Below, piece after piece: positions 5,774 to 61,513 of a stretch of 64,000 nt of DNA. The notes below the pieces were generated by a model that saw only the letters and a list, made by a program, of their open reading frames with translations, did not search any database and had not been told where the DNA came from. Source of the DNA: Lingula anatina (Eukaryota > Animalia > Brachiopoda); NCBI GenBank assembly GCA_051362555.1, contig CM120642.1:6448001-6512000 (forward strand). Reading direction: 5' to 3'. Position numbers and translations under genes: made by a program. Positions within the stretch are counted from its first letter, which is position 1, and each line of letters begins with the position of its first letter.

Positions 5774-14590
<8,817 letters not shown>

Positions 14591-30954: not shown

Positions 30955-30985
<31 letters not shown>

Positions 30986-31438: not shown

Positions 31439-31479
<41 letters not shown>

Positions 31480-31977
31480 AGTTTAGTGTTATGTGTAAAT
31501 GAAAACGGGGAGCCCTGCACTGTTAACATTCTGAAGGAGGGTGAAAGTAATAAAAGGAGCGTTTCACGCTAACAGTGCATTCTGGGGAACACAGAAGCCC
31601 ATGGCCTACTGGTACATGTAGTAATTAATTAAAGCTACTGAATTTCAACTTCAAAACCATTAAGGCATTACTTATCTGTCGTGTTCAGTCAAATTAAAGT
31701 CCCGATGAAAAGTGTTAGGGAACTTAAACTTTGAGGCGTGGACGTTTTTTATCTATTCAATTTAATCTAGCAACTGGGAAAACCCTTGGAGAACTGATAT
31801 ATTGTGGTAGTTGAGGGACATCCATTGCACACGGTTCTGGTCATTAGTCTTATCTTGCAATGGTGAAGAATTCTTTAAGAATTCTTGGATCCAGAAAATC
31901 TTGTCACATTAAAGCCCATTTCTGTCTTACTCAGAAAAAGTTAACCAAACTTTTTGAGTTAGGCTAGCTACAGTGAA

Positions 31978-32016
<39 letters not shown>

Positions 32017-32688
32017 ATACATTTAAAAAAGAACAAACAAACACACGGCGGGAAAAACAATTTTCTTGTTGGGAAAAATTCCTCGTCACTTACTCCTCGT
32101 GCCTCCAAATGTTTCGGCAGAGTGCCATCGATGTCCAGTCGCCAGTCCACAATCCTGTAAAATGATTGCACAGTATACATGTATAATAATGCAATTGTTT
32201 ATGTAAATACATCCAGATGTTGTTTAAAACAAATTTAAGAATGAAAAATTATAATCACATACTGGGCTCCGTAACTCGAAAGCATCGCGAATTGCGATAG
32301 CGATATCACCTTTTATTTCGAAGCTATTATATGGAGCGAGTAAATCCTGAGTTATGGGATAGAGGCGCTTGCACTCGGTCGCAATTTGCGATGCTTTCGA
32401 GTTACGGAGCCCTGAACACTGACGCAAAGGTGGTATGAACGTTGATTCGCCAGCGCCTATCTCTCCTGGACTTTTTCAGGGAACTGAGCTGTGCTCTCTC
32501 TCTCTCTCTCTGTCTCTCTCATATTGCAACTTACGCTTTTGCGACGACATCAAACATGCCCAATCGCCCACTGCTCATAGTTTTATCCACCCAGCCGTTC
32601 TCGCTGACCAACGAACTAACTGCAAGGCTGAAAAATAATAGGAGCACTCGCTGTTTAGGTCACAAAGCAATCGCATTTATTATATACT

Positions 32689-32722
<34 letters not shown>

Positions 32723-34120
32723 GGACACATACAGTGAGAGGAGGTAGGACCCAAGGTGAAGGCATGGCAATTGTGAATGGAAATACATGTACTATACTAT
32801 ACTATACTATACTATACTATACTATACTATACTATACTATACTATACTATACTATACTATACATTTGGCATAAACAATATATCCTTTAATAGTCAAAAAT
32901 ACAGAAGAACGAAATGAAAGGGAGCAAACTTCCGAATATAAAGGTAAACTGCATATTCAGTGATGCGAAATTATGAATCCAAAATCAATCAATCAATTTC
33001 CTTACTCGTTGATGGCGATAAGATAGAGAAAGTGCGGTGCCAGCAGTCTGAAGATCGGGTGAGAAGGAGAAAGGTTCCTGTGGGTCGCCAAGGCAACGCC
33101 TTCGATCAAAAGATGCGTGAACCCTAAATTCAGACAAAAAACAAATCGAACTGACACATTGAATCGACTTAAAATAAAAGCTTAACGTTATATTACAGAA
33201 ACGTTATTAAACAGCTGTTTCCTAATTCAAGCATTGAGACTCTCAAATCACCGCCGATATACTTTCAAGAAGTTAAACGTATTTCTACATTAAGGTTTAT
33301 TCGAATGTGCTTAAACGTTTGTGAGACTTTTCGTGGTGGGTAAAGTTGTGTTTGGCTTTGGATGTACTGACGGATCCAGAGGTCTGGGATTGGGAGGAAA
33401 ACAAAATTTTCTACATGCAGGCTACGAGGATGGAAAATTACTTGGTTTTGTCTCTTTTAGCTTGTTCTGATTTTTTTTGGCAGGGGGGGGGGGGGGGTTG
33501 GAGAGAGCAGGGGGCACCTTCAAAACTAAGGGGAGGGTGTTAAAATGAGTGGCCCAAAGAACCACCTGGATCCGCCATTGCGATGTGTGACCGCCAATAT
33601 TCAAATGTTCACCCACCCAGGTGAGTAACAACCTGATGGAAGGTGGCGTCAGCATTGTTGTAGTACATCTTAGCGTACAGCCAGGTCATAGGGTGGTCAC
33701 TGGGCAAGAACACCTGCATTGAAAAAAACCGTGGCTGCAATAAGATCGATTATAAAAATTATTGCCCAACACCCCCCGCCCCCACCTACCAGTAGGCGAG
33801 ATTTAAATCCATTTAAACAGAACACCTTTGTTAAGAAATTTGATAGATCCAGATATTTACCAGGTTATTACCTGTTCACCTTCACCTGCACAGGTAATTC
33901 AGTTGTGACCAAGTCTGTCAGAGTGAACAGACGAAACAGTCAACAGGTAAATCAGATATCTGGATCTATCATAAATGAAAACATTCTGACTAATATTACA
34001 TTTACTTGGCTTGTGCATGGACCAGTGTTCTACCAAGCATAATAAAAACATGTAAGAGCCACAAGTTAAAATGAATACACTTAATTTAGTATTTAGATTT
34101 TGTTGTTCTAATTTCTTTTG

Positions 34121-34192
<72 letters not shown>

Positions 34193-34720
34193 GCACGTAT
34201 ATCAACCATGCATGTAAATGAAGTCCGTCAAGTAGAAAAACGTGTGTAAATTATACGAACTTGGAACACGTACATTGTACATGAATATTCTTCATGATGG
34301 CTGAGGCTAGACTACAAGCAAAAGGTTTTGTACATGTATTCCGTTCCTGTTTATGAGAAATTATTTGGAATATTCATCAGTCATATTGCTGCGTAGCCTC
34401 TGTCAGGCATGCAAAACCCGTATCAGGTATAACTCAACTACTTCATTCTGGTTCTTGAATGATAGATAACTTTCAAACTGCCACGTTACTATATTTGACC
34501 CCTTTTATTCGGAGAACCTGTGGCCCAAAATAGTAGCAGCTCATGGAGAAAGTTCATAGAGCCATGTGGACCGCGTTAGAGGTATGTCATAATTGATGTC
34601 TTTGTTTATTCAGTTATTTTCTTTGCCTGTATGCAGCCAGATAGATGACTATGGTAGAGGCAGATGGCAGGGTTTGCCTAACAGTTAATTATCTTTGAGA
34701 CCAGTTAGATATATCATGTT

Positions 34721-34754
<34 letters not shown>

Positions 34755-36790
34755 GAGAGTATGTGCGCGTGCGTGTGAGAGAGTGTGTAAATGTGTGTGC
34801 GTGTGTGCATGTGTGTGTGTGTGTGAGTGTGTGTGTGAGAGAGAAATAGAGGGGAGATGGAGAGTGTGTATGTGTGTGTGTGCGCGTTTGTGAGAGAGTG
34901 TGTGTACATATGGTCGCGTGTGTGCATGCGTGTGTGCGTGTGTGTGTGTGTGTGTCTGTGTGAAAGAGATAGAGAGGGGTGGCGTGCTTGAGTACTCATG
35001 TGTAGTCACTTAATTACACGTATCATCACTATCAACGTCATAAAATTATGACAGGAGTGTCCATTGTGGTAAATCTTGGTGTGGTAACAGAACATGTTAG
35101 TAATTTCTTGGTGTTGGTAGATATGAGTCGCCTATTGCCAACCGTTTTAAAATGGGGTAGGTCACACAACTAGAAAAAAAAAAACAATTAGCCAACGTAA
35201 CAAGCCTACGGTGCAAACTAGTTAACAAGGATAAAAGAAGACCAAAATAGTCTTTATGGATTTAAAAAGTACCTAATTATGATAAAAATTAGATAACTAG
35301 AGTGACAAGTAATTGTAATGACCTTGGAGCTAATATCACTTGACTGCTTGACCATGACAAAGTACCAAAATGCATAGGAGAGGGTGTTTAAGTTGGCATA
35401 TCATGAAAACTGGGTAACTTAGAAACTTGTGAGAGGTATCATTTATAATGTTCAAAGGCAAGGCCATTCATTGGCAAAAAGGTTGGAAGTCGTCAGAGGT
35501 CAAGGTCGTGCCTAAATGCCAAGGTCATTCTCGAGAAGGGACCAAAATAGCTTAAAATATAGCATCAACTTTCTTAATTCTTTCAAAAATGAACTTTTTA
35601 TGATTTCTATAGCTCCTACTGAGAACTGCATACCAGAGACCACCTTTGTGAATGTTGCATTTAACTGACCAAGGGTAAAATAATGTATGTCAAGGTCAAA
35701 TTTGCAGCCAAACACCTACAAAAGTGGCATTTCTGATCCTATAACAGTCGAACTAAAGAAATCAAAATGTACAAGATTAAAGTCGTGAAATAAAAACGAG
35801 AGTAATTTGTTGATCATAAGAGGCCAAGGTCATGTTTGTGTGTCAAAGACCGCATTCTCAACGAATTGAGCCAGGCTTTACAAATCCCGAGAACTAAAAA
35901 TGGCGGACGTACATGAAAGAAAAACCGCCTAATCTTTTAATAGTCTCTCCGCCTCTCACACGCCTCCCCACACGTCGTCCCTGCGGGGTACAGTAATTAA
36001 ATCTCGGCTCCGAACATGAATATCTCCGTGAATATCTCTGGTGATATTATCTCCGTAGGTAGTCGATTTATTGCTGCTCTACGGGCCAATTCATTCTTTT
36101 TTCGTCTCTGTTTTGAAAGATAATAGAACAGAAGAGCTTTTTTTCTTTCGATCGCCTTCAGCCGGCATGCTTTCTTCACCACGAGTTTAACTGATGAGCA
36201 TGCGCACTTAATATTTCTCAGGTAGCTTCCGCATGGCGAACGGAGCCGAGATTTAATTACTGTACCCCGCAGCCTGGCTCAATTCGTTGAGAATGCGGTC
36301 AAAGTTAGTCTCGAACTGGGATCAAAATGGTCTTAAATACGTCCAACTATAATTTTCATAGAAAGAAATTATTTATTAAGCAATTTGGTCAAAAGGCAAT
36401 CATTTTAAAGTGGGATTCAACTGAACAAAGGTAAAGGAACTAAGTGTTTAAGTCAAATGGGCACGAACGTAATTAAAACAGTTAAATAAAAAATACCTGA
36501 AATGTCATTTCTCTCAAATTTTACGTACAGATGATGAGGCCTCTTAATAATATATGTGATCAGATTTACGGATTGCATGGCGCAGAATTAGATAATGTCT
36601 TAAGGTTAAACTTAAAACAAGGTCAAACCTAAAATGGCATGTCTCAATATAACTTCAATAAGTAAGACAAATACAACATTCAACCAGATCATTAGTGTAT
36701 TTATCATAATTATTGTTACTTCATGTTCTAACTTCAAGTAAAAGTATTTGAACTCCTTTTGCTAATCAATTGTTCATTTCACAAATTTCT

Positions 36791-36825
<35 letters not shown>

Positions 36826-39800
36826 CAATTGTTCAAAATGCCAGTGTCATCCTGTAAATCTATCTCAGTTTTTCCAATAGTTTGCTGGACCTCTCTTTTT
36901 CATAAAGCCCAGTTTAGAGTACCCCAACATTGCCCTATGGTAAATAAGGCAAGTCACAAATGGGCTGAACCGCCGCCATGAACAATTATATAAAGATGTT
37001 GTTTTTATCACACTTTTTCAAGAAAATGTCGCACAAACATTACTAAGATCACGGAGTAAGCCATCATAACAACAAATTTAAAGAAGGAATATCAATTTAT
37101 CAGAAATTCAATTCAATTTACTGCAAACAAGTTGAAACCATTACAACCTGAATAGTTAACAAAGGATGTTGACAGTCAAATTCTGTTCCACTAAATCATA
37201 CAGCAAAATGATTTACATTGTATGGCCCCGCTTACTCACGGGTGCTTGATGTAATTGAACGAATACTCGACCTGCAAAATATTTCATAACATATATGCCA
37301 GTGATTCATGAATTAAATATTGATTTGAGTCTTATGATTTGCACCGATTTTTTTGTTACATTTTGCATATTTCTGATGTCTGATTTCTCATGGATCTGAA
37401 TATAGGCCTATTAAATAAGACCTGGGGGTGAATTATGAAACTGCCCAAATGTATTAAGAGACATAACCCTGTGATCAAATTTTCGTTTTACACGCGCTTT
37501 ATTCTTGCAACTTTAAATTTTTCACACAGACCCCTTCTGCCTTTTCCGCTATGTGTTCCTAGTGAAAACATATAAGAAAAAATATAAGCTTGCTTTGTGA
37601 TTCCATTGCAATAGTTCAACCCGGAATTATAATTATTTTTTTGCTTCAGATACCCCGCATGCGCAGTCTTATGCGGTATAGATGGTACACCATCGTCTTC
37701 ATTTTCTTCTTCATAACTGCGCTCGCGTTTGTCATCCACAAAATCAGGACGATGAACCAAAAGATGCACAGAACAGAATACTTAGAGGCTGAAAGAGAAA
37801 GCCTCCTGGAGCGCCAGGCAGCCGAGAACGACGATTACAACGTGGAACAAGAAGAGCCCTCCACGCGGCCGCCACCAAAAGATGGAGTTGACATGGACGC
37901 TGGTCACCGAGAATCCCCGCTGGGTAAAGTCAACCAAGGGGACCCTGCAGGAGTGCCGATAATGGGGGATGAGGGCCAGCAACAGTCAGAGGGCCAGTTC
38001 AACCCGGTCTACCAGCCTCTCCAGCCCGAACTTCCAGTTCGACGACAACACCAACAACAGCAACATCTTGCGCAACAACAGCAGCAGCCGATGCTACAGC
38101 ATCCGCACGTGATGCAACTGCAAGTTCCACAACACGGTTATCAGCAAACGCAACCGCAGCAACTGCTGCAGCCAGTGTATCAGCAACAGCAACAACCCGC
38201 CCCTGTTCAAACCTCCACGGCGTTACAAATTACCGCCAAGCAGGCAGAGTTCAGCAACAGAGAATATGAACGCTTTATGGAGATGTTGGAAGAATGGCCG
38301 AGCGACAAACCCAAGGCAACGATCTATTATCTTCTGAACACACAACGCATACATATACGTAGATTCCGTGGTGCAATACAGAGCGTCGATAAATTTTTCA
38401 ATAATCGCTTCCAGTATCCCATTGTGATATTTCATGAGCCCGACCTGTTAGAAAGTCATAAACAAGACATAAAATCATGGACGACGTCAAATGTATTTTT
38501 CCAAATCGTGGAATTTATCATACCGGAGTGGATCAGAATGCCAGCAGAGGACTGGTTGCACACGTGTGTTTTTGCCAGAATGGGGTACCGCCACATGTGT
38601 AGATTTCAAAGCGTTCTCGTCTCCCAGCAACCAATTTTACAACCAATAGAATGGTATTGGCGCCTTGATGATGACTCGAAACTCCTAAATGACGTCACGT
38701 ATGACGTATTTCAGTTTATGCGGGATCGTGATCTGACTTATGCATACATCAGGCTCGTATTTGAGTTCAAACCGGACTGTATAGCTGGCCTAAGAGGAAA
38801 TTCCACAAAGTATGTTCACCAACACCAACTAACACCAACATTCCTTGAGCGCTTGCCAGAAAACTGGAGTCTGTTTAACAACTTTGAAATATCACGGTTC
38901 AGTTTCTGGCGTCGCCAGGATGTGAAGGCGTACCTAAATTATATCGATCACGCTGGCGGCATCTTTTACAACCGCTGGGGAGACGCTCCTATCAAAACTA
39001 CGGCTCTTGCTATATTTGAAAACATTGACAAGATTTTCCAGCTCACCAATGTGCTGTATCAACATAAGAAGTTCAGTATGGAAGAGAACAAAAGGCGCCT
39101 GAAGCCGATTGAATCTTACTTGAAACCGAAAGTTTAGTGAAATGCTCGCCGTGTTTTTTACACTGAAGATGGGTTTTCACATTGAACTTGAATACAAATA
39201 CAAACCTTACTGGTAATAAGGTTGGCGGGAATGTGAGCTCTCACATCTTTTGGCCTTTGTTTTCATTTGAGCCAATTTTTTGTTCCAATAGCTGTTGTGG
39301 TTTCTCATATTTTTCTTAAATAATCTTGTTTGCACTTATTAACCTAATTTATTAATTTTATGTTATGGCAGTTATATAGTTTGGGGGATGTTATATTATC
39401 CCCCCAGTTTTGTAACTTTGTATCTTATTTTCGTCATTAATAAATGAAAATTTTCAGTCCTATATGGACTTATCTTATTTACTTTTGAGCAAAAACAGAG
39501 CTTCGTTGTGCTTTTGAATATTGGGTATATAAATACAAATGCATGATATATATAATGGACATATACATACAAATAAGACTTGAATATAGTTGGTTTTTTC
39601 AATCGAAAGTCAGAATAAATGGATAAAAACAATATAAACAGTAACAATACAATTGGAATTCAACTTTGAGAAACTACCAGCATTCAAGGTGTTGGAAATT
39701 AAGAGATACTTTCCCCTTTTTTAAACCTAAGATTAACAAATTAATTATATCATGTTTTATTTCAAATACCTCCACCCAGATAATTCTTAAATCCAACAGT

Positions 39801-40221
39801 TTTTAAAAATTGCAAATGCGAAATAAGAATTTGAAAACGGTAGGCGTTGATTAGTCAGAAATTAAGAAAATGTAAGCATACGTACTGAATCACCAAAGAA
39901 AATCTATATCCATTGGAGCAGAACACCTTTGTTCAAAATTTTGATAGATCCAGATACTAGCCAGGAAATTACCTGTTCACCTACACCTGCACAGGTAATT
40001 CAGTTGTGACCAAGTCTGGCGGAATGAACAGACGAACCAGTCAACAGGTAAATCAAATATCTGGATCTCTCATAAATGAAAACATTCTGACTAATATTAC
40101 ATTTACTTGGCTTGTGCATGGACCAGTGTTCTACCAAGCATAATAAAAACATGTAAGAGCCACAAGCTAAAATGAATACACTTAATTTAGTATTTAGATT
40201 TTGTTATTCTAATTTATTTTG

Positions 40222-40289
<68 letters not shown>

Positions 40290-40875
40290 GCATGTATATC
40301 AAGCATGCATGTAAATGAAGTCCGTCAAGTAGAAAAACGTGTGTAAATTATACGAACTTGAAACACGTACATTGTACATGAATATTCTTCATGATGGCTG
40401 AGGCTAAACTACAAACAAAAGGTTTTGTATTCCGTTCCTGTATATGAGAATTTATTTGGAATATTCATCAGTCATATTGCTGCGTAGCCTCTGTCAGGCA
40501 TGCAAAACCCGTATCAAGTATAACTAAACTACTTCATTCTGGTCCTTGAATAATAGATAACTTTTAAATTGCCACATTACTATATTTGACCCCTTTTATT
40601 CGGAGAACCTGTAGTCCAAAATAGTAGCAGATCATGGAGAAAGTTCGTAGAGCCTTGCGGACCGCGTTAGAGGTATGTCATAATTGATGTCGTTGTTTAT
40701 TCAGTTATTTTCTTTGCCTGTGTGCAGCCAGATAGATGACTATGGTAGAGGCAGTTGGCAGGGTTTGCCTAACAGTTAATTATCTTTGAGACCAGTTAGA
40801 TATATCATGTTGAGAGAGAAAGAGAGAGAGAGAGATAGGGAGAGAGTATGTGCGCGTGCGTGTGAGAGAGTGTGT

Positions 40876-40908
<33 letters not shown>

Positions 40909-43900
40909 TGTGTGTGTGAGAGAGAAATAGAGGGGAGATGGAGAGTGTGTATGTGTGTGTGTGCGCGTTTGTGAGAGAGTGTGTGCACATATGGTCGCGT
41001 GTGTGCATGCGTGCGTGCGTGCGTGTGTGTCTGTGTGAAAGAGATAGAGAGAGGTAGCGTGCTTGAGCAGTCATGCGTAGTCTCTTGATTACACGTATCA
41101 TCACTATAAACGTCATAAAATTATGGCTGGAGTGTCCCTTGTGGTAAATCTTGGTGTGGTAACAGAACTTGTTAGTATTTTCTTGGTGTTGGTAGATATG
41201 AGTCGGCTATTGCCAACCGTTTTAATATGGGGTAGGACACACAACTAGAAAAATACAATTAGCCAACGTAACAAACCTACGGTACATACTAGTTAACAAG
41301 GATAAAAGAAGACCAAAATAGTCTTTATGGATTTTGAAATTACCTAATTATGATAAAAATTGGATAACTAGAGTGACAAGTAATTGTAATGACCTTGGAG
41401 CTAATATCACTTGACTGCTAATAAAGTTAATCACTTGACTAATTTAAAGTGTGCTGCAGCAGAACGCCGCTCTGACTGGTTTGCAAAGCTATGGGACGAC
41501 AACGGTGGTGGCGACAAACTCAGATTGTTTAAATTATTAAAGTGATAATAACTCTTCGTTTTGGCCAAAAAATGAATTTTCTTGGAGTAAACAACAATTT
41601 TCCCATACTTACCAATGGTTAATGAATCCATTTTTACATTCAAAGTTAGTCCCTGGTTTTTTTCTAAAAAGTTTGGTTTTTTGTTAAAATCTCTTAAGAG
41701 ATTTTAACAGAGTATAGCCATCAATGGAGGTCACGTGGTCTAAAGACAAGCTCAGATATCAGAATAATAGCTATAACAGCCGTTTTTGTGGGAAAACAGA
41801 ATATATTATATTTTTATGAGTCATTCACAATGTTTTTATTGTGAAATACAGATTTCATATACAGAGTTATTATCCCTTTAAGCTCAGAAGTTATAAGTTA
41901 TGCCGAAAAACATCCTTGTCAATTAAACAACAAAGGGCACTTGCTTAAGTAAGGTGTGGGAAGGCCCCACATCGAATAGAAATCGATCGATATGAAAAAA
42001 TATCTATTGTGAAAAAAACTGCCCATTATGTGAATCTGAGTGTATCCACTTCTTTTTGCTATTGCTAGACGTTTTAACAATATTTTGATCTTTTAAATAA
42101 TCAGAACAAGTTTTTATTTTGATTCGTAATGATGACATGATAAATTTACATGTATTTGCCAAGACCTGTTGCCGATTTTTAAAAATGAAACTTAAACGTA
42201 ATTTTTAAATGATATTGAGTCTTTCATACAAGTAGTTCTATATTGAATTATCACGTTTTACTGCTTCTAATTTCGTATTTCTTAACATATGGGTGAGCCT
42301 GAAATAAAATATCTTGAATCTTGAATCTTGGTGAAATGAATGCATGGAAATGGACAGTGGAAATGGTTTTGTGGTATCGATCATTATACACGATGGACAT
42401 TTACCCCCACCCCCTCCCCAACATCTGTTAACCCAGGGTCCTGCTCTATTGTATCGGGAGTGACCGTAGAGTAGCAACCTATTCAGGGGGAGTGGACATT
42501 CTTAGTTGATTCATGTGGTACTTATTTACGTTTGTCGCCAACGGAGGGTATTGGTAGTTTATGAATAGTCTCACCTGTTAACATTGAAGTATCATTATAT
42601 ATGTCTATCATTTTTTAATGAATAAACGTCTGTACGAACGTCCATAGAAAGCTTCATATAATCAGATGGTGATGAATCAATTATCCTGATGCCTTGCAAG
42701 ATTTCCCATTTTACATGCAAGTGGTGGTTTACTGCTTCATGTCTTATTCATTAATGTAAAACGCTGCTTTGCGAAATCCTTTGCTAAATGACGTTTGGGA
42801 ACGACTGAAACAAATCCTTTAATTAAAACGGCTTTATGAGTTTGTTAATATCTTTGTCCAGTGAACCAACGATATTTTCCCATTGAGTTGGAGAAATGTT
42901 AACAAAGGTTTCTGTACTGAATCCGTGGTTTCAATAAGGTCTCAATATGACTTCAATATGTAAAACAAATACAACATTCAACCAGATCATTAGTGTATTT
43001 ATCATAATTATTGTTACTTCATGTTCTAACTTCAAGTAAAAGTATTTTTGTTGAACCCTTTACATTTGAACATCTTTTGCTGATCAATTGTTCATTTCAC
43101 AAATTTCTCAAAAAGAAAAAAAAAGCAATTGTACAAAGTGCCAGTGTCATCCTGTTATTCTCCGATACAGAGTAAGGATGTCGTGAAAGTCCGCGTGTTC
43201 TTGAAGTTTGTACATAAATCCCTGGTTACCATCGACCTGTTCCTAAATAAGAGTCTATCTCAGTTTGTCCAATAGTTTTCTGGACCTCTCTATTTCATAC
43301 AGCCCAGTTTAGAATACCCCAACATTGCCCTATCGTAAATAAGGCAAGTCACAAATGGGCTGAACCGCTGCCATGAAGAATTGTTTTTAGGATGTTGTTT
43401 TTATCACACAGTTTCAAGAAAATGTCGCACAAACATTACTAAGATCACGGAGTAAGCCATCATAAGAACAAATTTAAAGTAGGAACATCAATTTATCAGA
43501 AATTCGGAGACACGAATGAAGCAATTCACTGTAAACAAGTTGAAACCATTATACAACCTGAATAGCTAACAAAGGATGTTGACAGTCAAATTCTGTTCCA
43601 CTAAATCATACAGCAAAATGATTTACATTGTACTGCGCCGCTTACTTACGGGTGCTTGATGTCATTAAACGAATACTCGACCTGCAAAATATTTTATAAC
43701 ATATATGCCAGTGATTCATGAATTAAATATTGATTCTAGTCTTATGATTTGCACCGATTTTTTTGTTACATTTTGCATATTTCTGATGTCGGATTTCTCA
43801 TGGATCTGAATATATGCCTATTAAGTAAGATCTGGGGGTGAATTCTGAAACTGCCCAAATGTATTAAGAGACATAACCCTGTTATCACATTTTCGTTTTA

Positions 43901-46898
43901 CACGCGCTTTATTCTTGCAACTTTAAATTTTTCACACAGGCCCCTTCTGCCTTTTCCGCTATGTGTTCCTAGTAAAAACATATAAGAAAAAATATATAAG
44001 TTTGCTTTGTGATTCGATTGCAATAGTTCAATCCGGAATTAAAATTATAATTATTTTTTTTGCTTCAGCTCGCGTTTGTCATCCACAAAATCAGGACGAT
44101 GAACCAAAAGATGCACAGAACAGAATACTTAGAGGCTGAAAGAGAAAGCCTCCTGGAGCGCCAGGCAGCCGAGAACGACGATAACAACGTGGAACAAGAA
44201 GAGCCCTCCACGCGGCCGCCACCAAAAGATAGAGTTGACATGGACGCTGGTCACCGAGAGTCCCCGCTGGCTATAATCAACCAAGGGGACCCTACAGGAG
44301 TGCCGATAATGGGGGATGAGGGCCAGCAACAGTCAGAGGGCCAGTTTAACCCGGTCCGCCAGCCTCTCCAGCCCGAACTTCGAGTTCCGCCAATGGATCG
44401 TGCGAATCCTGATCGACAACAACACCAACATCTTGTGCAACAACAGCGGCAGCCGATGCTACAGCAGGTTCCACAACACGTTTATCAGCAACTGCAACTG
44501 CAGCAACAGCAGCAGCCAGTGTATCAGCAACAGCAAGAACCCGCCCCAGTTCAAACCTCCGCAACGTCACAAATTACCGCCAAGCAGGCAGAGTTCAGCA
44601 ACAGAGAATATGCACGCTTTATGGAGATGTTGGAAGAATGGCCGAGCGACAAACCCAAGGCAACGTCTATTATCTTCTGAACACACAACGTATACATAGA
44701 TTCCGTGGTGCAATACAGAGCGTCGATAAATTTTTCAATAATCGCTTCCAGTATCCCATTGTGTTGTTTCATGAGCCCGATCTGTTAGAAAGTCATAAGC
44801 AAGACATTAAATCATGGACGACGTCGAATGTATTTTTCCAAATTGTGGAATTTATCATACCGGAGTGGATCAGAATGCCAGCAGAGGACTGGTTGCACAC
44901 GTGTGTTTTTGCCAGAATGGGGTACCGCCACATGTGTAGATTTCAAAGCGTTCTCGTCTCCCAGCAACCAATTTTACAACCAATAGAATGGTATTGGCGC
45001 CTTGATGATGACTCGAAACTCCTAAATGACGTCACGTATGACGTATTTCAGTTTATGCGGGATCGTGATCTGACTTATGCATACATCAGGCTCGTATATG
45101 AGTCCGAACCGGACTGTATAGCTGGCCTGAGAGGAAATGCCACAAAGTATGTTCACCAACATCAACTAACACCAACATTCCTTGAGCGCTTGCCAGAAAA
45201 GTTGAGTCTGTTTAACAACTTTGAAATATCACGGTTCAGTTTCTGGCGTCGCCAGGATGTGAAGGCGTACCTAAATTATATCGATCACGCTGGCGGCATC
45301 TTTTACAACCGCTGGGGAGACGCTCCTATCAAAACTATCGCTCTTGCTATATTTGAAAACCTTGACAAGATTTTCCAGCTCACCAATGTGCTGTATCAAC
45401 ATGATAAGTTCAGAATGAAGGAGAACAAAAGGCGCCTGAAGCCGATTGAATCTTACTTGAAACCGAAAGTTTAGTGAAATGCTTGCCGTGTTTTTTTACA
45501 CTGAAGATGGGTTTTCACATTGAACTTGAATACAAATACAAACCTTACTGGTAATAAGGTTGGCGGGAATGTGAGCTCTCACATCTTTTGGCCTTTGTTT
45601 TCATTTGAGCCAATTTTTTGTTCCAATAGCTGTTGTGGTTTCTCATATTTTTCTTAAATAATCTTGTTTGCACTTATTAACCTAATTTATTAATTTTATG
45701 TTGTGGCAGTTATATAGTTTGGGGGATGTTATATTATCCCCCCAGTTTTGTAACTTTGTATCTTATTTTCGTCATTAATAAATGAAAATTTTCAGTCCTA
45801 TATGGACTTATCTTATTTACTTTTGAGCAAAAACAGAGCTTCGTTGTGCTTGTGAATATTGGGTATATAAATACAAATACATGATATATAATGGACATAT
45901 ACATACAAATAAGACTTGAATATAGTTGGTTTTTTCAATCGAAAGTCCGAATAAAAGGATAAAAACAATACAAACAGTAACAATACAATTGGAATTTAAC
46001 TTTGAGAATCTACCAGCATTCAAGGTGTTGGAAATTAAGAGATACTTTCCCCTTTTTTAAACTTAAGATTAACAAATGAATTATATCATGTTTTACTTCA
46101 AATACCTCCACCCAGATAATTCTTAAATCCAACAGTTTTTAAAAATTGCAAAAGCGAAATAAGAATATGAAAACGGTAGGCGTTGATTAGTCAGAAATTA
46201 AGAAAATGTAAGCATACGTACAACTGAATCACCAAAGAAAATCTATATCCATTGGAGCAGAACACCTTTGTTCAAAAATTTGATAGATCCAGATACTAAC
46301 CAGGAAAATGCACGAAAATGCAGTAGTATCGAAGTAGCAAAAAAGCATTAACGCAGTAGTGGTGTGGAGCATATCTGCAGTAGAAATGCAGCATAGCCTA
46401 CTGCAATTCTACTCCAAAAAGTACATAGGTTTGTACAGAGAGGAGCATTAATGCAGTAGATTAGCAGCATGATAGAAGCATGTTTCAAATATGCTAATTA
46501 GCTCCCAAATCGAAGCAGATTTGAAGCATGTTTGCAGTATGATTGCAGTAGTCTGCTGCGGTTTGCAGTATGATTGCAGTAGTCTACTGCGCTGGAGTAT
46601 CTACTGCGTTTTCTTGCGGGATAGATCCAGATATTTACCAGGAAATTACCTGTTCACCTTTACCTGAACAGGTAATTCAGTTGTGACCAAGTCTGCCAGA
46701 GGGAACAGACGAACCAGTCAACAGGTGAATCAGATATCTGGATCTATCATAAATGAAAACATTCTGACTAATATTACATTTACTTGGCTTGTGCATGGAC
46801 CAGTCTTCTAACAAGCATTATAAAAACATGTAAGAGACACAAATTAAAATGAATGCACTTAATTTAGTATATAGATTTTGTTATTCTAATTTATTTTG

Positions 46899-46994
<96 letters not shown>

Positions 46995-49900
46995 GCATGT
47001 ATATCAAGCATGCATGTAAATGAAGTCCGTCAAGTAGAAAAACGTGTGTAAATTATACGAACTTGGAACACGTACATTGTACATGAATATTCTTCATGAC
47101 GGCTGAGGCTAAACTACAAGCAAAAGGTTTTGTACATGTATTCCGTTCCTGTATATGAGAAATTATTTGGAATATTCATCAGTCATATTGCTGCGTAACC
47201 TCTGTCAGGCATGCAAAACCCGTATCAGGTATAACTCAACTACTTCATTCTGGTCCTTGAATGATAGATAACTTTCAAATTGCCACATTACTATATTTGA
47301 CCTCTTTTATTCGGAGAACCTGTGGTCCAAAATAGAAGCAGCTCATGGAGAAAGTTCATGGAGCCATGTGGACCGCGTTAGAGGTATGTCATAATTGATG
47401 TCTTTGTTTATTCAGTTATTTTCTTTGCCTGCATGCAGCCAGATAGATGACTATGGTAGAGGCAGATGGCAGGGTTTGCCTAACAGTTAATTATCTTTGA
47501 GACCAGTTAGATATATCATGTTGAGAGAGAGAGAGAGAGAGATAGAGAGAGAGGATGTGCGCGTGCGTGTGAGAGAGTGTGTAAATGTGTGTGCGTGTGT
47601 GCATGTGTGTGTGTGTGAGTGTGTGTGTGAGAGAGAAATAGAGGGGAGATGGAGAGTGTGTATGTGTGTGTGTGCGCGTTTGTGAGAGAGTGTGTGTACA
47701 TATGGTCGCGTGTGTGCATGCGTGTGTGCGTGTGTGTGTGTGTGTCTGTGTGAAAGAGATAGAGAGGGGTGGCGTGCTTGAGTAGTCATGTGTAGTCACT
47801 TGATTACACGTATCATCACTATCAACGTCATAAAATTATGACAGGAGTGTCCATTGTGGTAAATCTTGGTGCGGTAACAGAACATGTTAGTAATTTCTTG
47901 GTGTTGGTAGATATGAGTCGCCTATTGCCAACCGTTTTAAAATGGGGTAGGTCACACAACTAGAAAAAAACAATTAGCCAACGTAACAAGCCTACGGTGC
48001 AAACTAGTTAACAAGGATAAAAGAAGACCAAAATAGTCTTTATGGATTTAAAAAGTACCTAATTATGATAAAAATTAGATAACTAGAGTGACAAGTAATT
48101 GTAATGACCTTGGAGCTAATATCACTTGACTGCTAATCAAGTTAATCACTTGGCTAGATTAAAGTGTGCCGCAGCAGAACGCCGCTCTGACTGGTTTGCA
48201 AAGATATTGGACGACAACGGTGGTGGCGACAAACTCAGATTGTTTAAATTATTAAAACAAAGCTAAGAAGTTATAAGTTACGTCGAAAAACATCCTTGTC
48301 AATTAAACAACAAAAGGCACTTGCTAAAGTAAGGTGTGGGGTACGTGGCCCAACTTCGAATAGAAACCGATCTATACGAAAAATTAGCTATTGTGAAAAA
48401 AAACTACCCATTATGTGAATCTGAGTGTATCCACTTCTTACTAAACTGTCCTTTTTTATTGATGAACTTGCTTAACTTTTTGATATTGCGAGACGATTTT
48501 TAAAACAATATTTTGATCTTTTAAATGTTCAGAGCAAGTTTTTTATTTTGATTAGTAATGATGACATAATTAATTTACATGTAGTTGCCAAGACTTGCTG
48601 CCGATTTTTTAAATAATGCTTTATTTTTAAAATGATATTGATTCTTTCATACATGTAGTACTATATTGAACTGTCATGTTTTACTGCTTCTAATTTCGTA
48701 TTTCTTAACATATGGGTGAGCCTGAAATAAAATATCTTGAATCTTGAATCTTGGTGAAATGAATGCGTGGAAATGGACGTCAGAAGTTCGAAATGCACTG
48801 GGGAGCATAGATTTTGTGGTATCGAGCATTATACACGATGGACATTTACCCCTACCCCCTCCCCAGCCTCTATTAACCCAGGGTCCTTCTCTCTTGTATC
48901 GGGGAGTGACCGTAGTGTAACAACCTATTCAGGGGAGTGGACATTCTTAGTTGATTCATGTGGTACTTATTTACGTTCGTCGCCCACGGAGGGTATTGGT
49001 AGTTTATGAATAGTCACACCTGTTAACACTGAAGTATCATTTTATATGTCTATCATTTTTTAATGAATAAACGTCTGTACGAACGTTCATAGATGTAATG
49101 CGCGGGAGGCTTCATATAATCAGATGGTGATAAATCAATTATCCTGATGCCTTGTAAGATTTCCCGTTTTACATGCAAGTTGTGGTTTACTGCTTCATGT
49201 CTTATTCATTAAAGTAAAACGCTGCTTTCGTGTTGTCAAACATCCTTTGCGAAATGATGTTTGGAACGACTGAAACTAAAATGGCTTTATGAGCTTGTTA
49301 ATATCTTAGTCCAGTGAACCAACAAAATTCTCCCAGTGAGGTTGGAGAAATGTTAACTGAATCCGGTCCAGTTTTGGGCCAATATAACCCAGATAATTTC
49401 CCACCGGAATCCACCCATGGCAAAGTACCAAAATGCATGGGAGAGGGTGTTTAAGTGGGCATATCATGAAAACTGGGTAACTTACAAACTTGTGAGAGGT
49501 ATCATTTATAATGTTCAAAGGCATGGCCATTCATTGTCAAAAATTTTGGAATTCGTCAGAGGTCAAGGTCGTGCCTAAATGTCAAGGTCAATCTCGAGAA
49601 TGGACCAGAATAGCTTAAAATATAGCATCAACTTTCTTAATTCTTTCAAAAATGAACTTTTTATGATTCCTATCGCTCCTATTGAGAACTGCATACAAGA
49701 AACCACCTTTGTGGATGTTGTATTTAACTGACCAAGGGTAAAATAATGTATGTCAAGGCCAAATTTGCAGCCAAACACATACAAAAGTGGCATTTCTAAT
49801 CCTATAACAGTCGAACTAAATAAATTCACTGATGGTCAAATCTCTCAAAATGTACAAGATTAAAGTCATGAAATAAAAAGGACAGCAATTTGTTGATCAT

Positions 49901-50504
49901 TAGAGGTCAAGGTCATGTTTGTGTGTCAAAGTTAGTCTCGAAACGGGATCAAAATGGTCTAAAATACGTCCAACTATAATTTTCATAGAAAAAATTATTT
50001 ATTAAGCAATTTGGTCAAAAGGCAATCATTTTACTGTGGGATTCAACTGAACAAAGGTAAAGGAAATAAGTGTTTAAGTCAAATGGGCACAAACGTAATT
50101 AAAACAGTTAAATAAAAAATACCTGTATTGTTATTTCTCTCAAATTTTACGCACCCACATTCACGGATGATGAGGCCTCTTAATAATATGTGAGATCAAA
50201 TTTACGGATTGCATGGCGCAGGATTAGATAATGTCTCAAAGTTAAACTTAAAACAAGGTCAAACCTAAAATGGCATGAAATACACATCACACCATGTTTC
50301 TACAAAAATATATACTCTTGATACAATGATGGAATATTTCAACAGAACATTTCATCCGTGGTTTCAATAAGGTCTCAATATGACTTCAATAAGTAAGACA
50401 AATACAACATTCAACAAGATCATTAGAATATTTATCATACTTATTGTTATTTCATTTCCATTTTAACTCCTTTTGCTGATCGATTGTTCATTTCACAAAT
50501 TTCT

Positions 50505-50555
<51 letters not shown>

Positions 50556-53500
50556 CAATTGTACAAAATGCCAGTGTCATCCTGTTATTCTCCTCTTATT
50601 AGGATGTCGTGAAAGTCCGCGTGTTCTTGAAGTTTGTAGATAAATCTCTGGTTACCATCGACCCGTTCCTAAATAAGAGTCTATTTCAGTTTGTCCAATA
50701 GTTTTCTGGACCTCTCTTTTTCATACAGCCCAGTTTAGAGTACCCCAGCATTGCCCTATGGTAAATAAGGCAAGTCACAAATGGGCTGAATCGCCGCCAT
50801 GAACAATTGTTTTCATCACAGTTTCAAGAAAATGTCGCACAAACATGACTATGAACACGGAGTTAGCCATCAGAACAACAAACTTCAACAAGGAATCTCA
50901 GTTTATCAGAAATTCTGACACACGAATGAAGCAATTGCCTGTAAACAAGCTGATGGATCCATTCTTTGTTGTGTCATAAGAGATTTCTGATGTTCTGTGC
51001 TTTATCTTAGGTCATCATTGAGGAGACGGCCGTTCACTGATTCTAGGTAAAACCAGGTTTTTGACAGGTTGTTGTCACTTAATAATAAAAGTTGCTGACA
51101 ATGCACTGTCCTAACTACATATCTGGTAGGGTATACGAACATCTATGGTGCTGTTACTTTAACGGTGCCACCAGTGTAGATGACTGCAGGGTCCCGTATG
51201 TTACCTTGTAATTGCCTCTGGAATAACTGACTGACAGCGTGAGCCATTTTCATATGTCCTTCCATTTCTGTCCGTCACGTTGCATCCACAAGCACAATTT
51301 CAAATGTGCATTTGAAAGTCCGTGTGCTTGTGTTTCTGCTCATAGGCACATTTTGTATGCCTGACTGTAAACATTGTCTCAAAGCTGCATCAATATACGC
51401 GTTTTTCATAATGTTGCCTTGTGTTTGTGACATTTTGTAACTAAAAATGACATTTAAATATGTTTTTAAGTAAACATTTCTACAAAGTTCAGCAAAAATA
51501 TAGTTACATTTCAAGTCATTGTTGAGTTTGACCTTGACATACGTACATGACCTTGGCCTCTCTTCGCTAACAAAGTATTGTCCTTTTACTTCATAATTTC
51601 AACTTTTTAAATATCATTAGGAAATTTGGCCATTTAACGATATATTTGATTAGTTTGGCATGTAATTTGGGGACCATCAAGCTTACTTTTGTATCTTTTA
51701 AGATGCAAATTTGACATTGACATACATTATTTTATCCTTAGTCAATTAAATGCAACATTCACAAAGGTGGCGTCATGTGTGCAGTTCTCAATAAGAGGTA
51801 TAAAAAAACAAGAAAGTTCATTTTTGAAAGAATAAAGAAAGTTGATGTTGTATTTTAAACTATTTTGGTCCTTTTTCGAAATTGGCCTTGACATTTAGGC
51901 ATGACCTTGACCTCTGATGACGTCCAAACTTTTTTCAAATGAATGGCCATGAACATTAGAAATGATATCTCCCACAAGTTTGTAAGTTACCCAGTTTCCA
52001 TCATATGCCCACGTAAACACCCTCCTCTATGCATTGGCAGCCATTTAGGATTTTTTGGCATGATTTGATTCCGGTGGGAAATAATCTGGGTTTTATTGGC
52101 CCAAAACTGTTGAGAAACCTTTGTTAACATTTTTTTCAAACCTAAGTCGTTTGTTTACTATCTGTACGTATCCCGAGTTTTCCATGCATACATGTACATT
52201 GTTTCGTTAACATTTTGTTATTCGATTATTTTTGTCTTAATTTTAAAACAGCCCAAATGTATTAAGAGACAAAACCCTGTTATCAAATTTTCTTTTCACA
52301 CCCGTTTATTCTAGCGACCTTTAATTTTTCACACAGGCCTTCACTTCTGCCTTTGTTCCTAGTGAAAACAAATATGAAAAAAGATTTTAGTTTGGTAATT
52401 ATATTGTAACAGTTGAACCCGGAAGTAAAATTATAATTATTTTTTGCTTCAGATACCCCGCATGCGCTGTCTTATGCGGTACAGATGGTTCATCATCGTC
52501 TCCATTTTCTTCTTCATAACTGCGCTCGCGTTTGTCATCCACCAAATCAGGATGACGAACCAAATGATGCACAGAATAGAATTTTTAGAGGCTGAAAGAG
52601 CAAGCTTCCTGGAGCGCCAGACAGCCGAGAACGACGATTACAACGTGGAACAAGAAGAGCCCCCCACGTGGCCGCCACCAAAAGATGGAGTGGACATGGA
52701 CACTGGTCACCGAGAATCCCCGCAGGGTGCAGTCAATCAAGACGACCCTGCAGGAGTGCCGGTAATGGGGGATGAGGGCCAGCAACAGTCAGAGGGCCAG
52801 GTCAACTCGGTATACCAGCCTCCCCAGACCGAACTTCGAGTCGTGCCAATGGATCGTGCGAATCCTGATCGACAACAACTCCAACAACAGCAACAGCATG
52901 TTCCACAACACGTTTATCAGCAACTGCAACCGCAGCAACAGCAGCAGCCAGTGTATCAGCAACAGCAACAACCCGCCCCTGTTCAAACCTCCGCAACGTC
53001 ACAAATTACCGCCAAGCAGGCAGAGTTCAGCAACGGAGAATATGAACGCTTTATGGAGATGTTGGAAAAATGGCCGAGCGACAAACCCAAGGCGACGATC
53101 TATTACCTTCTGAACACACAACGCATAAGTAGATTCCGTGGTGCAATACAGAGCATCGATAAATTTTTCAATAATCGTTTCCAGTATCCCATTGTGATAT
53201 TTCATGAGCCCGATCTGTTAGAAAATCACAAGCAAGACATAAAATCATGGACGACGTCAAATGTATTTTTCCAAATCGTGGAATTTATCATACCGGAGTG
53301 GATCAGAATGCCAGCAGAGGACTGGTTGCACACGTGTGGGTTTGCCAGAATGGGGTACCGCCACATGTGTAGATTTCAAAGCGTTCTCGTCTCCCAGCAA
53401 CCAATTTTACAACCAATAGAATGGTATTGGCGCCTTGATGATGACTCGAAACTCCTAAATGACGTCACGTATGACGTATTTCAGTTTATGCGGGATCGTG

Positions 53501-56500
53501 ATCTGACTTATGCATATATCAGGCTCATATTTGAGATCAAACCGGACTGTATAGCTGGCTTGAGAGGAAATGCCACAAAGTATGTTCACCAACATCAACT
53601 AACACCAACATTCCTTGAGCGCTTGCCAGAAAACTTGAGTCTGTATAACAACTTTGAAATATCACGGTTCAGTTTCTGGCGTCGCCCGGATGTGAGGGCG
53701 TACCTAAATTATATCGATCACGCTGGCGGCATCTTTTACAACCGCTGGGGAGACGCTCCTATCAAAACTACGGCGCTTGCTTTATTTGAAAACATTGACA
53801 AGATTTTCCAGCTCACCAATGTGCTGTATCTTCATAAGAAGTTCAGTATGGAAGAGAACAAAAGGCGCCTGAAGCCGATTGAATCTTTCTTGAAACCGAA
53901 AGTTTAGTGAAATGCTCGCCGTGTTTTTACACTGAAAAATGGTTTTCACATTGAACTTGAATACAAATATAAACCTTACTGGTAATAAGGTTGGCGGGAA
54001 TGAGATTTTTCATTTGAGCCAACTTTTTGGTCCAATAGCTTTTGTGGTTTCTCATATTTTTCTTACTTAATCTTGATGCACTTAATAACCTACTTTATTA
54101 ATTTTATGATATTGCAGTTATATAGTTTGGGGGATGTTATATTATCCCCCCAGTTACTTTGTATCTTATTAGTTTTCGTCATTAATAAATAACAATTTTC
54201 AGTCATATGGACTTATCTTATTTACTTTTGAGCAAAAACAGAGCTTCGTTTTGCTTGTGAACATTTGACTATATAAATACAAATATAAACCTTACTAGAA
54301 ATAAGACTTGAATGCAGTTAGTGCTTTCAATTGTAAGTCAGAATAAATGGATTAAAACAATACAAACAGTAACAATACAATTGGAATTTAACTTTGAGAT
54401 ACTACCAACAAGAGAAAAGACCCTTACCAGAAAATCGTATTAGCTCTTCGAGCTTATTTCATTTCATAATTATTGATGAAATGATCAGCGCTCTGTGATG
54501 ATTTCAGTCCCTGTGAAATTTTCCCCTGAACAAATGCTTGTATCGATTTTATGTACAAGGTAAAACATGTAACGGCGATGCATATGTCTTGAAGATGCGA
54601 CCTTAAAGTATACATATATACACGAAATGTTTCATTCATGTAATGTACCAAAAAGATGCAGAGAAAGATTGTAAGATTGCAACAAGAAAGGTGAAGTAGA
54701 GCTGACAGTTAGAAAACTCACCGGATTATTAGGTCCCTTATCCTGTTGGAGTTGAATGGCAACGGGCACCAAACGCTGATTTCCTTTTTGAAAGAACAGT
54801 ACCAGAGGTGCACCGATCTAGAAACAAGAAAGTGCTTGCAAAATCAATGGGAGGTCGTTCAAACCGCTAAATGGTCAGAATTTCAATTAATCTTAAAATT
54901 AATTTTTCTAAAATTCAAATTACTTACCTCAAATGTTTCGTTTTCTGCGCAGAACATTTCCATCACGGCTTTTCAGGAGATATACTTGCCCCCACCTACG
55001 GCCCTAAGGCCTTCCAAGCCAGGATTTTCCCTCCCAAAACTAAATTTTTAACGATTTTGCCCGGGGTAAACGGCATTTTCCCGCCTTTACAACCTTTAAT
55101 CTTCATTTTATGTAACTCTGTGTAGTAAATGTGCAATAGCTCAGTATTGTGTTAGAGAATATCAGTGTTGTGAGTGTTGAGATCTCGGGAGAATACTGGA
55201 GACTTGAAAATAAAGTATGGTGCTGGGAAATCAGACTTGGTGTCTTGTTGGTTTGAATCTAAGAACATCTTAAAGAACACATTGGCGACAAGGAATTATG
55301 GAGGAGGAAGAACCCCAAGCAGTAAACTTGACGCATATACCAACTTTTCCACCTTTCATCATCAGACAGGAACCGAACACCGTCTTTAAAAGATGGGGAA
55401 AATGGAAGGAAAGATTTGAAAACCTCATGGTTGCATTGAACATCAAAAATTCGCAACAGAAGAGAGCCATGCTTTTACATTTAGCTGGTGAGGAATTTTT
55501 AGACATTTTTGAGAATCTGCCAGACAGAGGGGACTGATATGAAGATGCGGTAGCTTCTTTTGGACAGTACGTTTACGTAAGACCTCATCATAATCCTGAG
55601 TTTGAAATTTACAAATTTCGAAGCTGTAAGCAAGAACCTAGTGAAACCATTGATTCATACCATATCAAACTAAGACAAATAGGAGCCAACTGTGGATTTG
55701 AAAATTTGGACAGAGAGGTTAAGTCACAAATTATACAAGGATGTACATCCCATAAGTTGAGAAGAAAAGCTCTTAGTGACCAGACTCTCACACTGAATAA
55801 CTTGCTTACACATGCTAGAGCTTTAGAGCTGTCTGAGCAAAGGTCCCATATTATGGAGGGCGATACCAGTCCTACCACAGTCTATGCCGTGAAAAAATCA
55901 GCACAAGCCCAAGCACCTAAACCACACAAGCCAAGTCATAACAAGTCCAAAACACAGCCAAAACAGGGTTTCAGTGAGTGTTGGTTCTGCGGTGGAGAGT
56001 ACCCACACAAAGGAGTTTGTCCTGCCAAGGGTAAAATCTGCAGAAAATGTAACAAGTTGAACCATTTCCAAATCAAATGCAGAAGTAAAGAGAACAAAAC
56101 AAAACCTGATCATGCTCCTATCAGTACTGTAAATGAAAATAAATGTAGCAAGTATATTATTGCTTTACAGGTTAGCTCACAGTCTATTGACTTTGAGCTA
56201 GATACTGGTGCGTCTGTCACGTTGATTGGTCAAGATTTGCATGAATCAAAGTTCAAAGATCACCCTTTACGTCAATCAGATTTGCATCTCACATCTTATT
56301 GCGGCAATCCTCTTAATTTATTGGGGGAAATAACAGTCACAGTGAGTTACAATGACCAGTCTGTAGACCTACCATTAGTAGTGGTGGAGGGATCTAAACC
56401 TGCATTGTTGGGGCAAAACTGGTTAGAGAAAATAAAGTTAGATTGGTCCAATGTCTTTTCTGTACAGAGTGACCCAAAGTTAAAGTCACTTCTGTCACAA

Positions 56501-61448: not shown

Positions 61449-61513
<65 letters not shown>

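What the first reader, a model, noticed from the sequence alone, without database searches (positions are those of the whole stretch)
33714..54721. Antisense array of three fungal-type GT15 mannosyltransferase genes filling one 21-kb intron of an intact lipoxygenase
Seen: lipoxygenase exons 54817-54722 and 33713-33617 flank a 21,008-bp intron. Almost all of it (from about 100 bp inside one exon to about 300 bp inside the other) is a three-unit tandem array of opposite-strand genes whose TM, stem and catalytic domain sit in one large exon. Established: GYRHMCR, YWR, NFEI and GGxxYxRWGDAP are signatures of CAZy GT15 (yeast Kre2/Mnt1/Ktr), a family best known from fungi and not part of vertebrate or Drosophila glycosylation. 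The metal-binding position here reads RLDDD rather than the fungal RVEPD, pointing to a non-Dikarya lineage. Inference: a horizontally acquired or patchily retained Golgi mannosylation enzyme entered a host intron, gained a short upstream exon and expanded, implying an undescribed animal alpha-mannosyl glycan or glycolipid pathway. Being embedded between spliced host exons argues against simple contamination.
Basis: partly seen in the sequence, partly recalled or inferred. Interest (0 to 1): 0.85.

Follow-up and report, generated by a model that had tools for sequence, protein, structure and literature searches.

The report
Lamp-shell GT15 sugar-transferase array inside lipoxygenase
Three recent tandem copies (two intact, one broken) of a sugar-transferase gene, from a family usually described as fungal, sit backwards inside one intron of an intact lamp-shell lipoxygenase gene; they likely came from an older gene family shared with annelids and flatworms and likely add mannose to Golgi glycans that nobody has yet matched to an enzyme.

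Summary
The host is a Lingula-type lipoxygenase: 14 exons in the window, 507 of 512 residues identical to RefSeq XP_013405846.2. Its intron 33714-54721 is 21,008 bp, and about 98% of it is three tandem opposite-strand GT15 (PF01793) units. Copies A and C are intact type II membrane proteins, with purifying selection on the catalytic domain and RNA reads carrying their alleles. Copy B is a pseudogene.

The 'HGT enzyme entered this intron and gained an exon' story is not supported. A and C are sister to a RefSeq Lingula gene on another scaffold that already has the same upstream exon. Lingula has six annotated GT15 models, and relatives occur in Owenia, Capitella and Macrostomum. The array looks like a recent DNA-level duplication into a roughly 390-bp intron.

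What remains interesting is the branch itself: a spiralian GT15 group with a DXD motif (DDD instead of fungal EPD) and an altered nucleotide pocket, which I did not find described in ten paper searches. Its deep origin (ancient transfer or patchy loss), sugar donor and product are unresolved.

The parts
29227..63295 (-). Host lipoxygenase, 14 exons inside the window (C-terminal 512 aa); PLAT exons lie beyond the window end
   Evidence: the RefSeq match has PF00305 + PF01477; spliced RNA reads at two of its small introns in run X18
54722..54817 (-). LOX exon 5 of the window model (donor side of the large intron)
33617..33713 (-). LOX exon 6 of the window model (acceptor side)
33714..54721 (-). 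21,008-bp GT-AG intron; about 392 bp remain if the array is removed, like neighbouring introns of 301-788 bp
   Evidence: flanks recounted from the printed junction letters: 78 + 314 bp
33792..39901 (+). Array unit 1 (gene A with flanks); begins with a dispersed repeat
34543..34581 (+). Gene A upstream coding exon (13 aa)
   Evidence: matches the N-terminus of RefSeq isoform X1 XP_013387224.1; in-frame splice; no RNA depth seen here
37650..39137 (+). Gene A main exon: TM (aa ~9-30), Q/P-rich stem, GT15 catalytic domain; intact (492 aa from ATG 37659; 508 aa with the upstream exon)
39902..46240 (+). Array unit 2 (gene B with flanks)
40634..40672 (+). Gene B upstream exon counterpart
44069..45474 (+). 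Gene B main exon, pseudogene: 70-bp deletion of start and most of the TM, 1-bp frameshift near 44665
   Evidence: spliced as it stands, it stops after 216 aa
46241..54407 (+). Array unit 3 (gene C with flanks); lacks the last ~220 bp of the unit tail; carries a ~330-bp insertion near its start
47345..47383 (+). Gene C upstream coding exon
52453..53907 (+). Gene C main exon, intact (481 aa from ATG 52462; 497 aa with the upstream exon)
33786..33791 (+). 6-bp word at the left junction, repeated at the right junction (54402-54407) and present inside the unit tail: microhomology, not a new target duplication
   Evidence: picked by eye after the fact

Best explanation
Three tandem copies of an intron-containing GT15 gene fill a once-small lipoxygenase intron on the opposite strand; they likely arose by a recent DNA-level duplication of a resident Lingula gene, and the two intact copies are predicted to be Golgi type II, Mn2+-dependent, retaining glycosyltransferases that likely add alpha-mannose from GDP-mannose to a glycolipid or glycoprotein glycan. 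Shown: the nesting, the intact host frame, the family and fold, A and C intact, B broken, and kinship with other Lingula GT15 genes. Inferred: a segment carrying promoter, upstream exon, intron and main exon was copied into a ~390-bp intron, probably by microhomology-mediated repair, then amplified by unequal crossover or inserted as a tandem. The host still splices the enlarged intron because its own splice signals were untouched and the guests' signals lie on the other strand; the location is incidental. Inferred from Kre2/Ktr4: the first Asp of DDD and the C-terminal His hold Mn2+ and the diphosphate, and the Q/P-rich stem is a spacer. Odds that the donor is GDP-Man: about 0.65. The acceptor is unknown; a mannose-containing glycosphingolipid is my lead candidate (about 0.3).
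For: Copies differ by dS 0.055-0.084 in the catalytic domain. A and C are sister to Lingula P0001 at 100/100. The upstream exon is shared with RefSeq isoform X1 of that gene, which sits on another record beside another GT15. Each unit keeps its intron, so these are not retrocopies. The residual intron is about 392 bp against 301-788 bp for 11 of the other 12 LOX introns. Catalytic-domain dN/dS is 0.30 for A-C (Fisher p=0.006), against 1.3 in the stem. DNA run X1 has depth about 98 on LOX and 272 on the collapsed GT15 exon (2.8x), and one 429-bp contig with no differences crosses LOX exon 6 into unit 1. RNA run X18 has reads with the A/B-type (7 of 20) and C-type (13 of 20) alleles at 38569, 5 of 5 A-type at 38444, plus spliced LOX reads. 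The AlphaFold model (pLDDT 87.7) matches Kre2p, CmsA and Ktr4p at TM 0.80. Ktr4p Tyr235, Met238, Glu262 and His411 map to Y, M, D and H (PMC4546622, passages).
Against: The 21-kb splice itself was not seen in reads: a lay holds at most 20 kb, so it rests on the RefSeq protein. The right junction was not tested. X1 matches the LOX region without differences and may be the window's own source. Two of three RNA runs (X12, X15) had almost no depth on LOX or GT15 exons; none had depth on the upstream exon; strand was not resolved. C-type reads could partly come from the P0001-type paralog, which shares that codon. B also shows dN/dS below 1 in the domain (0.41-0.48), so the selection signal may predate the loss of a copy. 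Several guanine-pocket residues of Ktr4p differ (Arg142 to N, Asn172 to H, Asp173 to E, Trp204 to F, Ser234 to G, Tyr229 to F; read), so the donor is not proven. The parent locus DNA could not be fetched.
Confidence: 0.72

Rival explanations
1. One reading: a foreign GT15 entered the animal genome at this intron, gained its upstream exon here and expanded.
For: The coding region is nearly all in one exon. GT15 was found only in fungi in a plant/animal/fungus survey (PMC5225481, passages). AU tests did not reject tying A, C and P0001 to fungal-type rows (p=0.167) or to prokaryote and viral rows (p=0.102).
Against: Six RefSeq Lingula GT15 models in at least four lineages, about 40% identical between lineages. 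The same upstream exon occurs in a paralog elsewhere. Copies are only 5-9% apart at silent sites. Relatives in Owenia (5), Capitella (1) and Macrostomum (2). The best tree nests the copies among Lingula paralogs, and the constrained trees are 28 and 36 log-likelihood units worse.
Confidence: 0.05
2. Deep origin by one ancient transfer into a stem spiralian from a microbial eukaryote (for example a stramenopile), followed by vertical descent, losses and lineage expansions. Compatible with the best explanation; it concerns the family, not the intron.
For: All named animal hits are spiralians. They share a 100/99 clade with Nannochloropsis-type proteins that excludes fungal-type, prokaryote and viral rows. 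A single animal-like clade of 44 rows is not rejected (p=0.448). Most close relatives have an uninterrupted domain (54 of 80 metagenome loci).
Against: The 50-row clade is an unresolved polytomy; 22 protein rows and 9 loci in it have no taxon name. Absence from other animals was only sampled (best 120 of 150 hits, 11, 30 cluster look-ups).
Confidence: 0.4
3. Deep origin by vertical descent from early eukaryotes or opisthokonts, with loss in vertebrates, insects and most sampled animals.
For: GT15 occurs in fungi, stramenopiles, some prokaryotes (6 loci) and viral contigs (75 loci), so it is old and widespread. Fungi are the animals' near relatives.
Against: Animal rows do not group with the fungal-type rows in the best tree. 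Many independent losses are needed. No named non-spiralian animal appeared in the listed hits.
Confidence: 0.4
4. Assembly artefact or contamination: haplotypes or foreign DNA stitched into the LOX intron.
For: The RefSeq-based collection holds no protein above 90% identity to A or C. The right junction and long-range continuity were not tested.
Against: Units differ by 5-12% with private insertions. Depth is 2.8x single copy and a contig crosses the left junction. Six DNA runs from three studies hold at least half of the sampled words of copy A. Spliceosomal introns are present and the nearest relative is a Lingula gene.
Confidence: 0.05

Closest known systems
Lingula anatina RefSeq XP_013387234.1 / XP_013387224.1 ('glycolipid 2-alpha-mannosyltransferase 2', automatic name)
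   Same: 87-88% identical catalytic domain, same TM, Q/P stem and upstream exon
   Different: Longer stem; lies on a different record from the LOX models, next to another GT15; function not tested as far as I found
Saccharomyces cerevisiae Kre2p/Mnt1p and Ktr4p, Aspergillus CmsA (CAZy GT15; PDB 1S4N, 5A07, 7BOO)
   Same: PF01793, GT-A fold at TM 0.80, YRHMCR, NFEI and RWGDAP motifs, metal His, type II topology
   Different: About 29% identity; DDD (a true DXD) instead of EPD/EPN; several guanine-pocket residues changed; long Q/P stem; animal host
Nannochloropsis GT15 (XP_005856206.1, 1447 aa)
   Same: Nearest named non-animal relative, inside the same 100/99 clade
   Different: Large multidomain protein with a methyltransferase domain
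Nested antisense intronic genes and tandem arrays (general knowledge, recalled)
   Same: Opposite-strand guest genes in a large host intron, host intact, one copy decayed
   Different: Nothing mechanistically new; here the insertion is recent and enlarged the intron about 50-fold

Membership tests
GT15 (Kre2/Mnt1/Ktr, PF01793) | Pfam profile above the curated cut-off | tested here: met
   144-151 bits against 25 for A, B and C
GT15 (Kre2/Mnt1/Ktr, PF01793) | Kre2-type GT-A fold | tested here: met
   Model pLDDT 87.7; top 10 Foldseek hits are Kre2p, CmsA and Ktr4p, TMq 0.79-0.82; the next families score about 0.5
GT15 (Kre2/Mnt1/Ktr, PF01793) | Mn2+ ligands: acidic residue at the EPD position and the C-terminal His | tested here: met
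   Asp for Ktr4p Glu262 and His for His411; both invariant in 20 of 20 aligned rows
GT15 (Kre2/Mnt1/Ktr, PF01793) | Fungal EPD-type motif (typical but variable in the yeast family according to PMC4546622) | tested here: not met
   DDD here; 183 of the stored protein rows among 335 domains read LDDD and 3 read EP. This marks a variant branch; it does not exclude family membership
GT15 (Kre2/Mnt1/Ktr, PF01793) | Type II membrane topology with a lumenal stem | tested here: met
   One hydrophobic segment at aa ~9-30 (KD 2.3-2.5) in A and C, absent in B; Golgi location is inferred
GT15 (Kre2/Mnt1/Ktr, PF01793) | GDP-binding pocket as in Ktr4p | tested here: inconclusive
   Tyr235 and Met238 kept; Arg142, Asn172, Asp173, Trp204, Ser234 and Tyr229 changed (sequence alignment with the residue list)
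GT15 (Kre2/Mnt1/Ktr, PF01793) | GDP-Man alpha-1,2-mannosyl (or mannosylphosphate) transfer | not testable with these tools
   Needs an enzyme assay
Animal lipoxygenase (host) | Open frame with PLAT + LOX domains and C-terminal Ile | tested here: met
   512 aa open, 507 identical to a RefSeq protein with PF00305 and PF01477; the PLAT exons are outside the window
Recent horizontally transferred gene | Nearest relatives are non-animal and the gene is absent from related phyla | tested here: not met
   Nearest relatives are Lingula paralogs, then annelid and flatworm proteins
Ancient transfer into Spiralia | Animal clade nested inside one foreign lineage | tested here: inconclusive
   Polytomy with Nannochloropsis-type rows; AU p=0.448, 0.167 and 0.102

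The most novel reading that the evidence does not exclude
Spiralian animals (brachiopods, annelids, flatworms) carry their own expanding DXD-type branch of the 'fungus-only' GT15 family, acquired once from a microbial eukaryote. It is the missing Golgi alpha-mannosyltransferase for their alpha-mannose-containing glycolipids, and the Lingula array is a current expansion under selection.
Probability: 0.2. Interest if true: 0.72.

Novelty: new variant of a known kind. Interest (0 to 1): 0.45.

Why it matters
GT15 is treated in print as fungal: 'only identified in fungi' in PMC5225481, and absent from humans in PMC11077754 (passages of each read). An intact, transcribed, multi-copy branch in several spiralian phyla means these animals likely have a Golgi glycosyl-transfer step that vertebrates lack (absence from flies is recalled). 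It gives glycobiologists a cloneable candidate for invertebrate alpha-mannosyl glycans. Bivalve glycolipids with Man-alpha1-3-Man are cited in PMC3606520 (passages); that Lingula has such lipids and that their enzyme is unidentified is recalled, not checked. The nesting in the lipoxygenase intron is ordinary genome turnover, and the paralogs are already auto-annotated in RefSeq, which caps the surprise.

Tried and rejected
- No whole genome is held, so the parent locus and copy number elsewhere could not be read.
- The ESM Atlas gave no answer, so there is no cluster-level taxon survey.
- No RNA holder was listed for copy A in the index; raw RNA runs were laid instead. Only 28500-43000 was laid, so B, C, the right junction and the 21-kb splice remain open.
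- Retrocopy origin rejected: every unit keeps its intron.
- Transposon-borne insertion not supported: no terminal repeats or new target duplication were seen at the array ends by self-BLAST and by eye. The 6-bp junction word also lies inside the donor tail.
- A functional link between LOX and GT15 was considered and dropped: the insertion is recent and nothing ties the two pathways.
- The Alvinella paper's 'mannosyltransferase activity' does not come from GT15: no Kre2-type family is among those listed in section 18, and no GT15 term was found in its 2 supplements held as text.
- The 2026 Lingula genome paper (PMC13121700) has no main-text mention of mannosyltransferase, glycosyltransferase or lipoxygenase; its supplements were not read and may list these genes.
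- Ten paper searches listed no paper on animal GT15; the library lacks most subscription journals.
- Tree rows dropped: near-duplicates and domains under 235 aa; long branches P0250, P0229, P0238, P0162, L006 and L059. 67 of about 407 domains were used, with LG+G4 and no mixture model; the bootstrap had not fully settled.
Full report
Observation. The window is animal DNA that matches Lingula anatina proteins. A minus-strand lipoxygenase has 14 exons in the window, giving 512 residues without a stop, 507 of them identical to RefSeq XP_013405846.2. All introns are GT-AG except a GC donor after the first exon seen. Eleven of the other 12 introns are 301-788 bp; the twelfth (6,128 bp) holds an LTR retrotransposon. 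Three tandem plus-strand units fill 98% of the large intron, and each carries a PF01793 domain at E about 1e-42.

Anatomy of the guests. Each unit has a 39-bp upstream coding exon, an intron of 3-5 kb and one large exon with a TM segment, a Q/P-rich stem and the catalytic domain. The upstream exon matches the N-terminus of RefSeq isoform X1 XP_013387224.1 and splices in frame in A and C. B has lost 70 bp covering the start and most of the TM and has a 1-bp frameshift. Silent divergence in the catalytic domain is 0.055 (A-B), 0.078 (A-C) and 0.084 (B-C). dN/dS there is 0.30 for A-C (Fisher p=0.006) against 1.3 in the TM and stem. Removing the array leaves about 392 bp, a normal intron for this gene. 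The same 6-bp word sits at both junctions and inside the unit tail; I read this as microhomology, chosen by eye. About 160 bp of unit tail occur only between units, so either a tandem was inserted with trimmed ends or the ends eroded later; this was not resolved.

Reality and expression. Ten DNA runs hold part of copy A, six of them at least half of the 203 sampled words, from three studies. On 28500-43000, run X1 has depth about 98 over LOX and 272 on the collapsed GT15 exon. One contig without differences runs from 33484 to 33912, across LOX exon 6 into unit 1. X1 may be the window's source. Of three RNA runs, only X18 covered the genes: 8 and 9 reads join two small LOX introns, and GT15 reads reach depth 20 at 38569, 13 with the C-type and 7 with the A/B-type allele; 5 of 5 reads carry A's letter at 38444. 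X12 and X15 were essentially blank on both genes, no run covered the upstream exon, and strand was not resolved. The large splice and the right junction were not tested.

Family and mechanism. PDB sequence hits are Kre2p (E 1e-34), CmsA and Ktr4p only. The AlphaFold model (pLDDT 87.7) matches them at TM 0.80. Using the residue list in PMC4546622 (passages), the Mn2+ ligands Glu262 and His411 map to Asp and His, and Tyr235 and Met238 are kept. The motif is a true DXD (DDD) rather than EPD/EPN, and six pocket residues differ. I therefore commit to a Golgi, Mn2+-dependent, retaining alpha-mannosyltransferase using GDP-Man (about 0.65), with acceptor and linkage open. A glycolipid acceptor is a lead: PMC3606520 (passages) lists Lingula unguis among animals with complex glycosphingolipids and gives bivalve lipids with Man-alpha1-3-Man. 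The corresponding Lingula structure is recalled. The lack of any named mollusc among my hits counts against that particular product.

Origin. The word-based search gave 150 hits, 120 listed; those with a species name are Lingula (3), Owenia fusiformis (4) and Macrostomum lignano (1). A second query added Capitella teleta (1 of 11 hits). The profile-free scan of 1.84 billion representatives found 2,595 at E<=0.001. Look-ups of 30 proteins named three more Lingula GT15 models, a fifth Owenia protein, a second Macrostomum protein, Nannochloropsis and the fungus Coemansia. Pattern scans found 6 prokaryote loci (29-40% identity), 75 viral loci (26-35%) and the best 80 of 448 metagenome matches. Of the 58 metagenome loci with enough flank, 47 are gene-poor (<20% ORF cover), whereas 6 of 6 prokaryote and 74 of 75 viral loci exceed 50%. 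Eleven of 80 have a split, intron-like domain. In a 67-row IQ-TREE tree, A and C are sister to Lingula P0001 (100/100), all Lingula rows group with one Owenia protein and three unnamed rows (89/94), and all named animals share a 100/99 clade with Nannochloropsis-type proteins, apart from fungal-type, prokaryote and viral rows. AU tests reject none of the alternatives tried (p=0.448, 0.167, 0.102), so the deep origin is open. P0001 lies on a 103-kb record with another GT15, while the LOX models lie on 371-kb and 712-kb records. This points to a resident donor locus, though I could not read it.

Comparison with what is known. The array members are GT15 by profile and fold, and a variant by motif and host. 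PMC5225481 (passages) found PF01793 only in fungi among its plant, animal and fungal genomes; PMC3797821 (passages) found no GT15 in its algae; PMC11077754 (passages) notes absence from humans. Ten searches listed no paper on animal GT15, but RefSeq already names the Lingula paralogs automatically. Earlier AI notes in this scan describe prokaryote and phage GT15 branches and a rotifer GT15-like gene; these are leads only.

Verdict. The nesting is a recent, ordinary duplication, not a transfer event. The worthwhile result is the spiralian DXD-type GT15 branch with a testable enzyme. Interest 0.45; new variant of a known kind.

Noticed in passing
window 55121-59748: Ty3/gypsy-type LTR retrotransposon in the neighbouring LOX intron, opposite strand to LOX: 1267-aa open frame with RT, RNase H and integrase, LTRs 97.5% identical, 5-bp target duplication CTCTG. 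A second recent insertion into the same host gene.
   Followed up: partly
window about 46305-46619: A ~330-bp insertion at the start of unit 3, flanked by a ~23-bp imperfect direct repeat and rich in short internal repeats; probably a small mobile element.
   Followed up: partly
window 41537-41880 and 35890-36240: Very high-copy repeats with heavy RNA read depth and many loose ends in all three RNA runs; SINE- or MITE-like.
   Followed up: no
window 49369-49932 and 51531-52109: Inverted copies (77% identical over ~580 bp) inside the intron of gene C.
   Followed up: no
window 5768-6793, 9192-11714, 18954-20246: An F-box protein exon, a long low-complexity Ser-rich frame without a Pfam hit, and a macrodomain-containing exon on the + strand.
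   Followed up: no
P0242 and P0243: RefSeq has two near-identical models of this LOX on different scaffolds, one truncated at the C-terminus; they may be haplotypes. The name 'allene oxide synthase-lipoxygenase-like' is automatic: the proteins have only PLAT and LOX domains.
   Followed up: partly
L001, L003, L127, L154: A small gene-dense prokaryote-type GT15 group, separate from the viral group in the tree.
   Followed up: no
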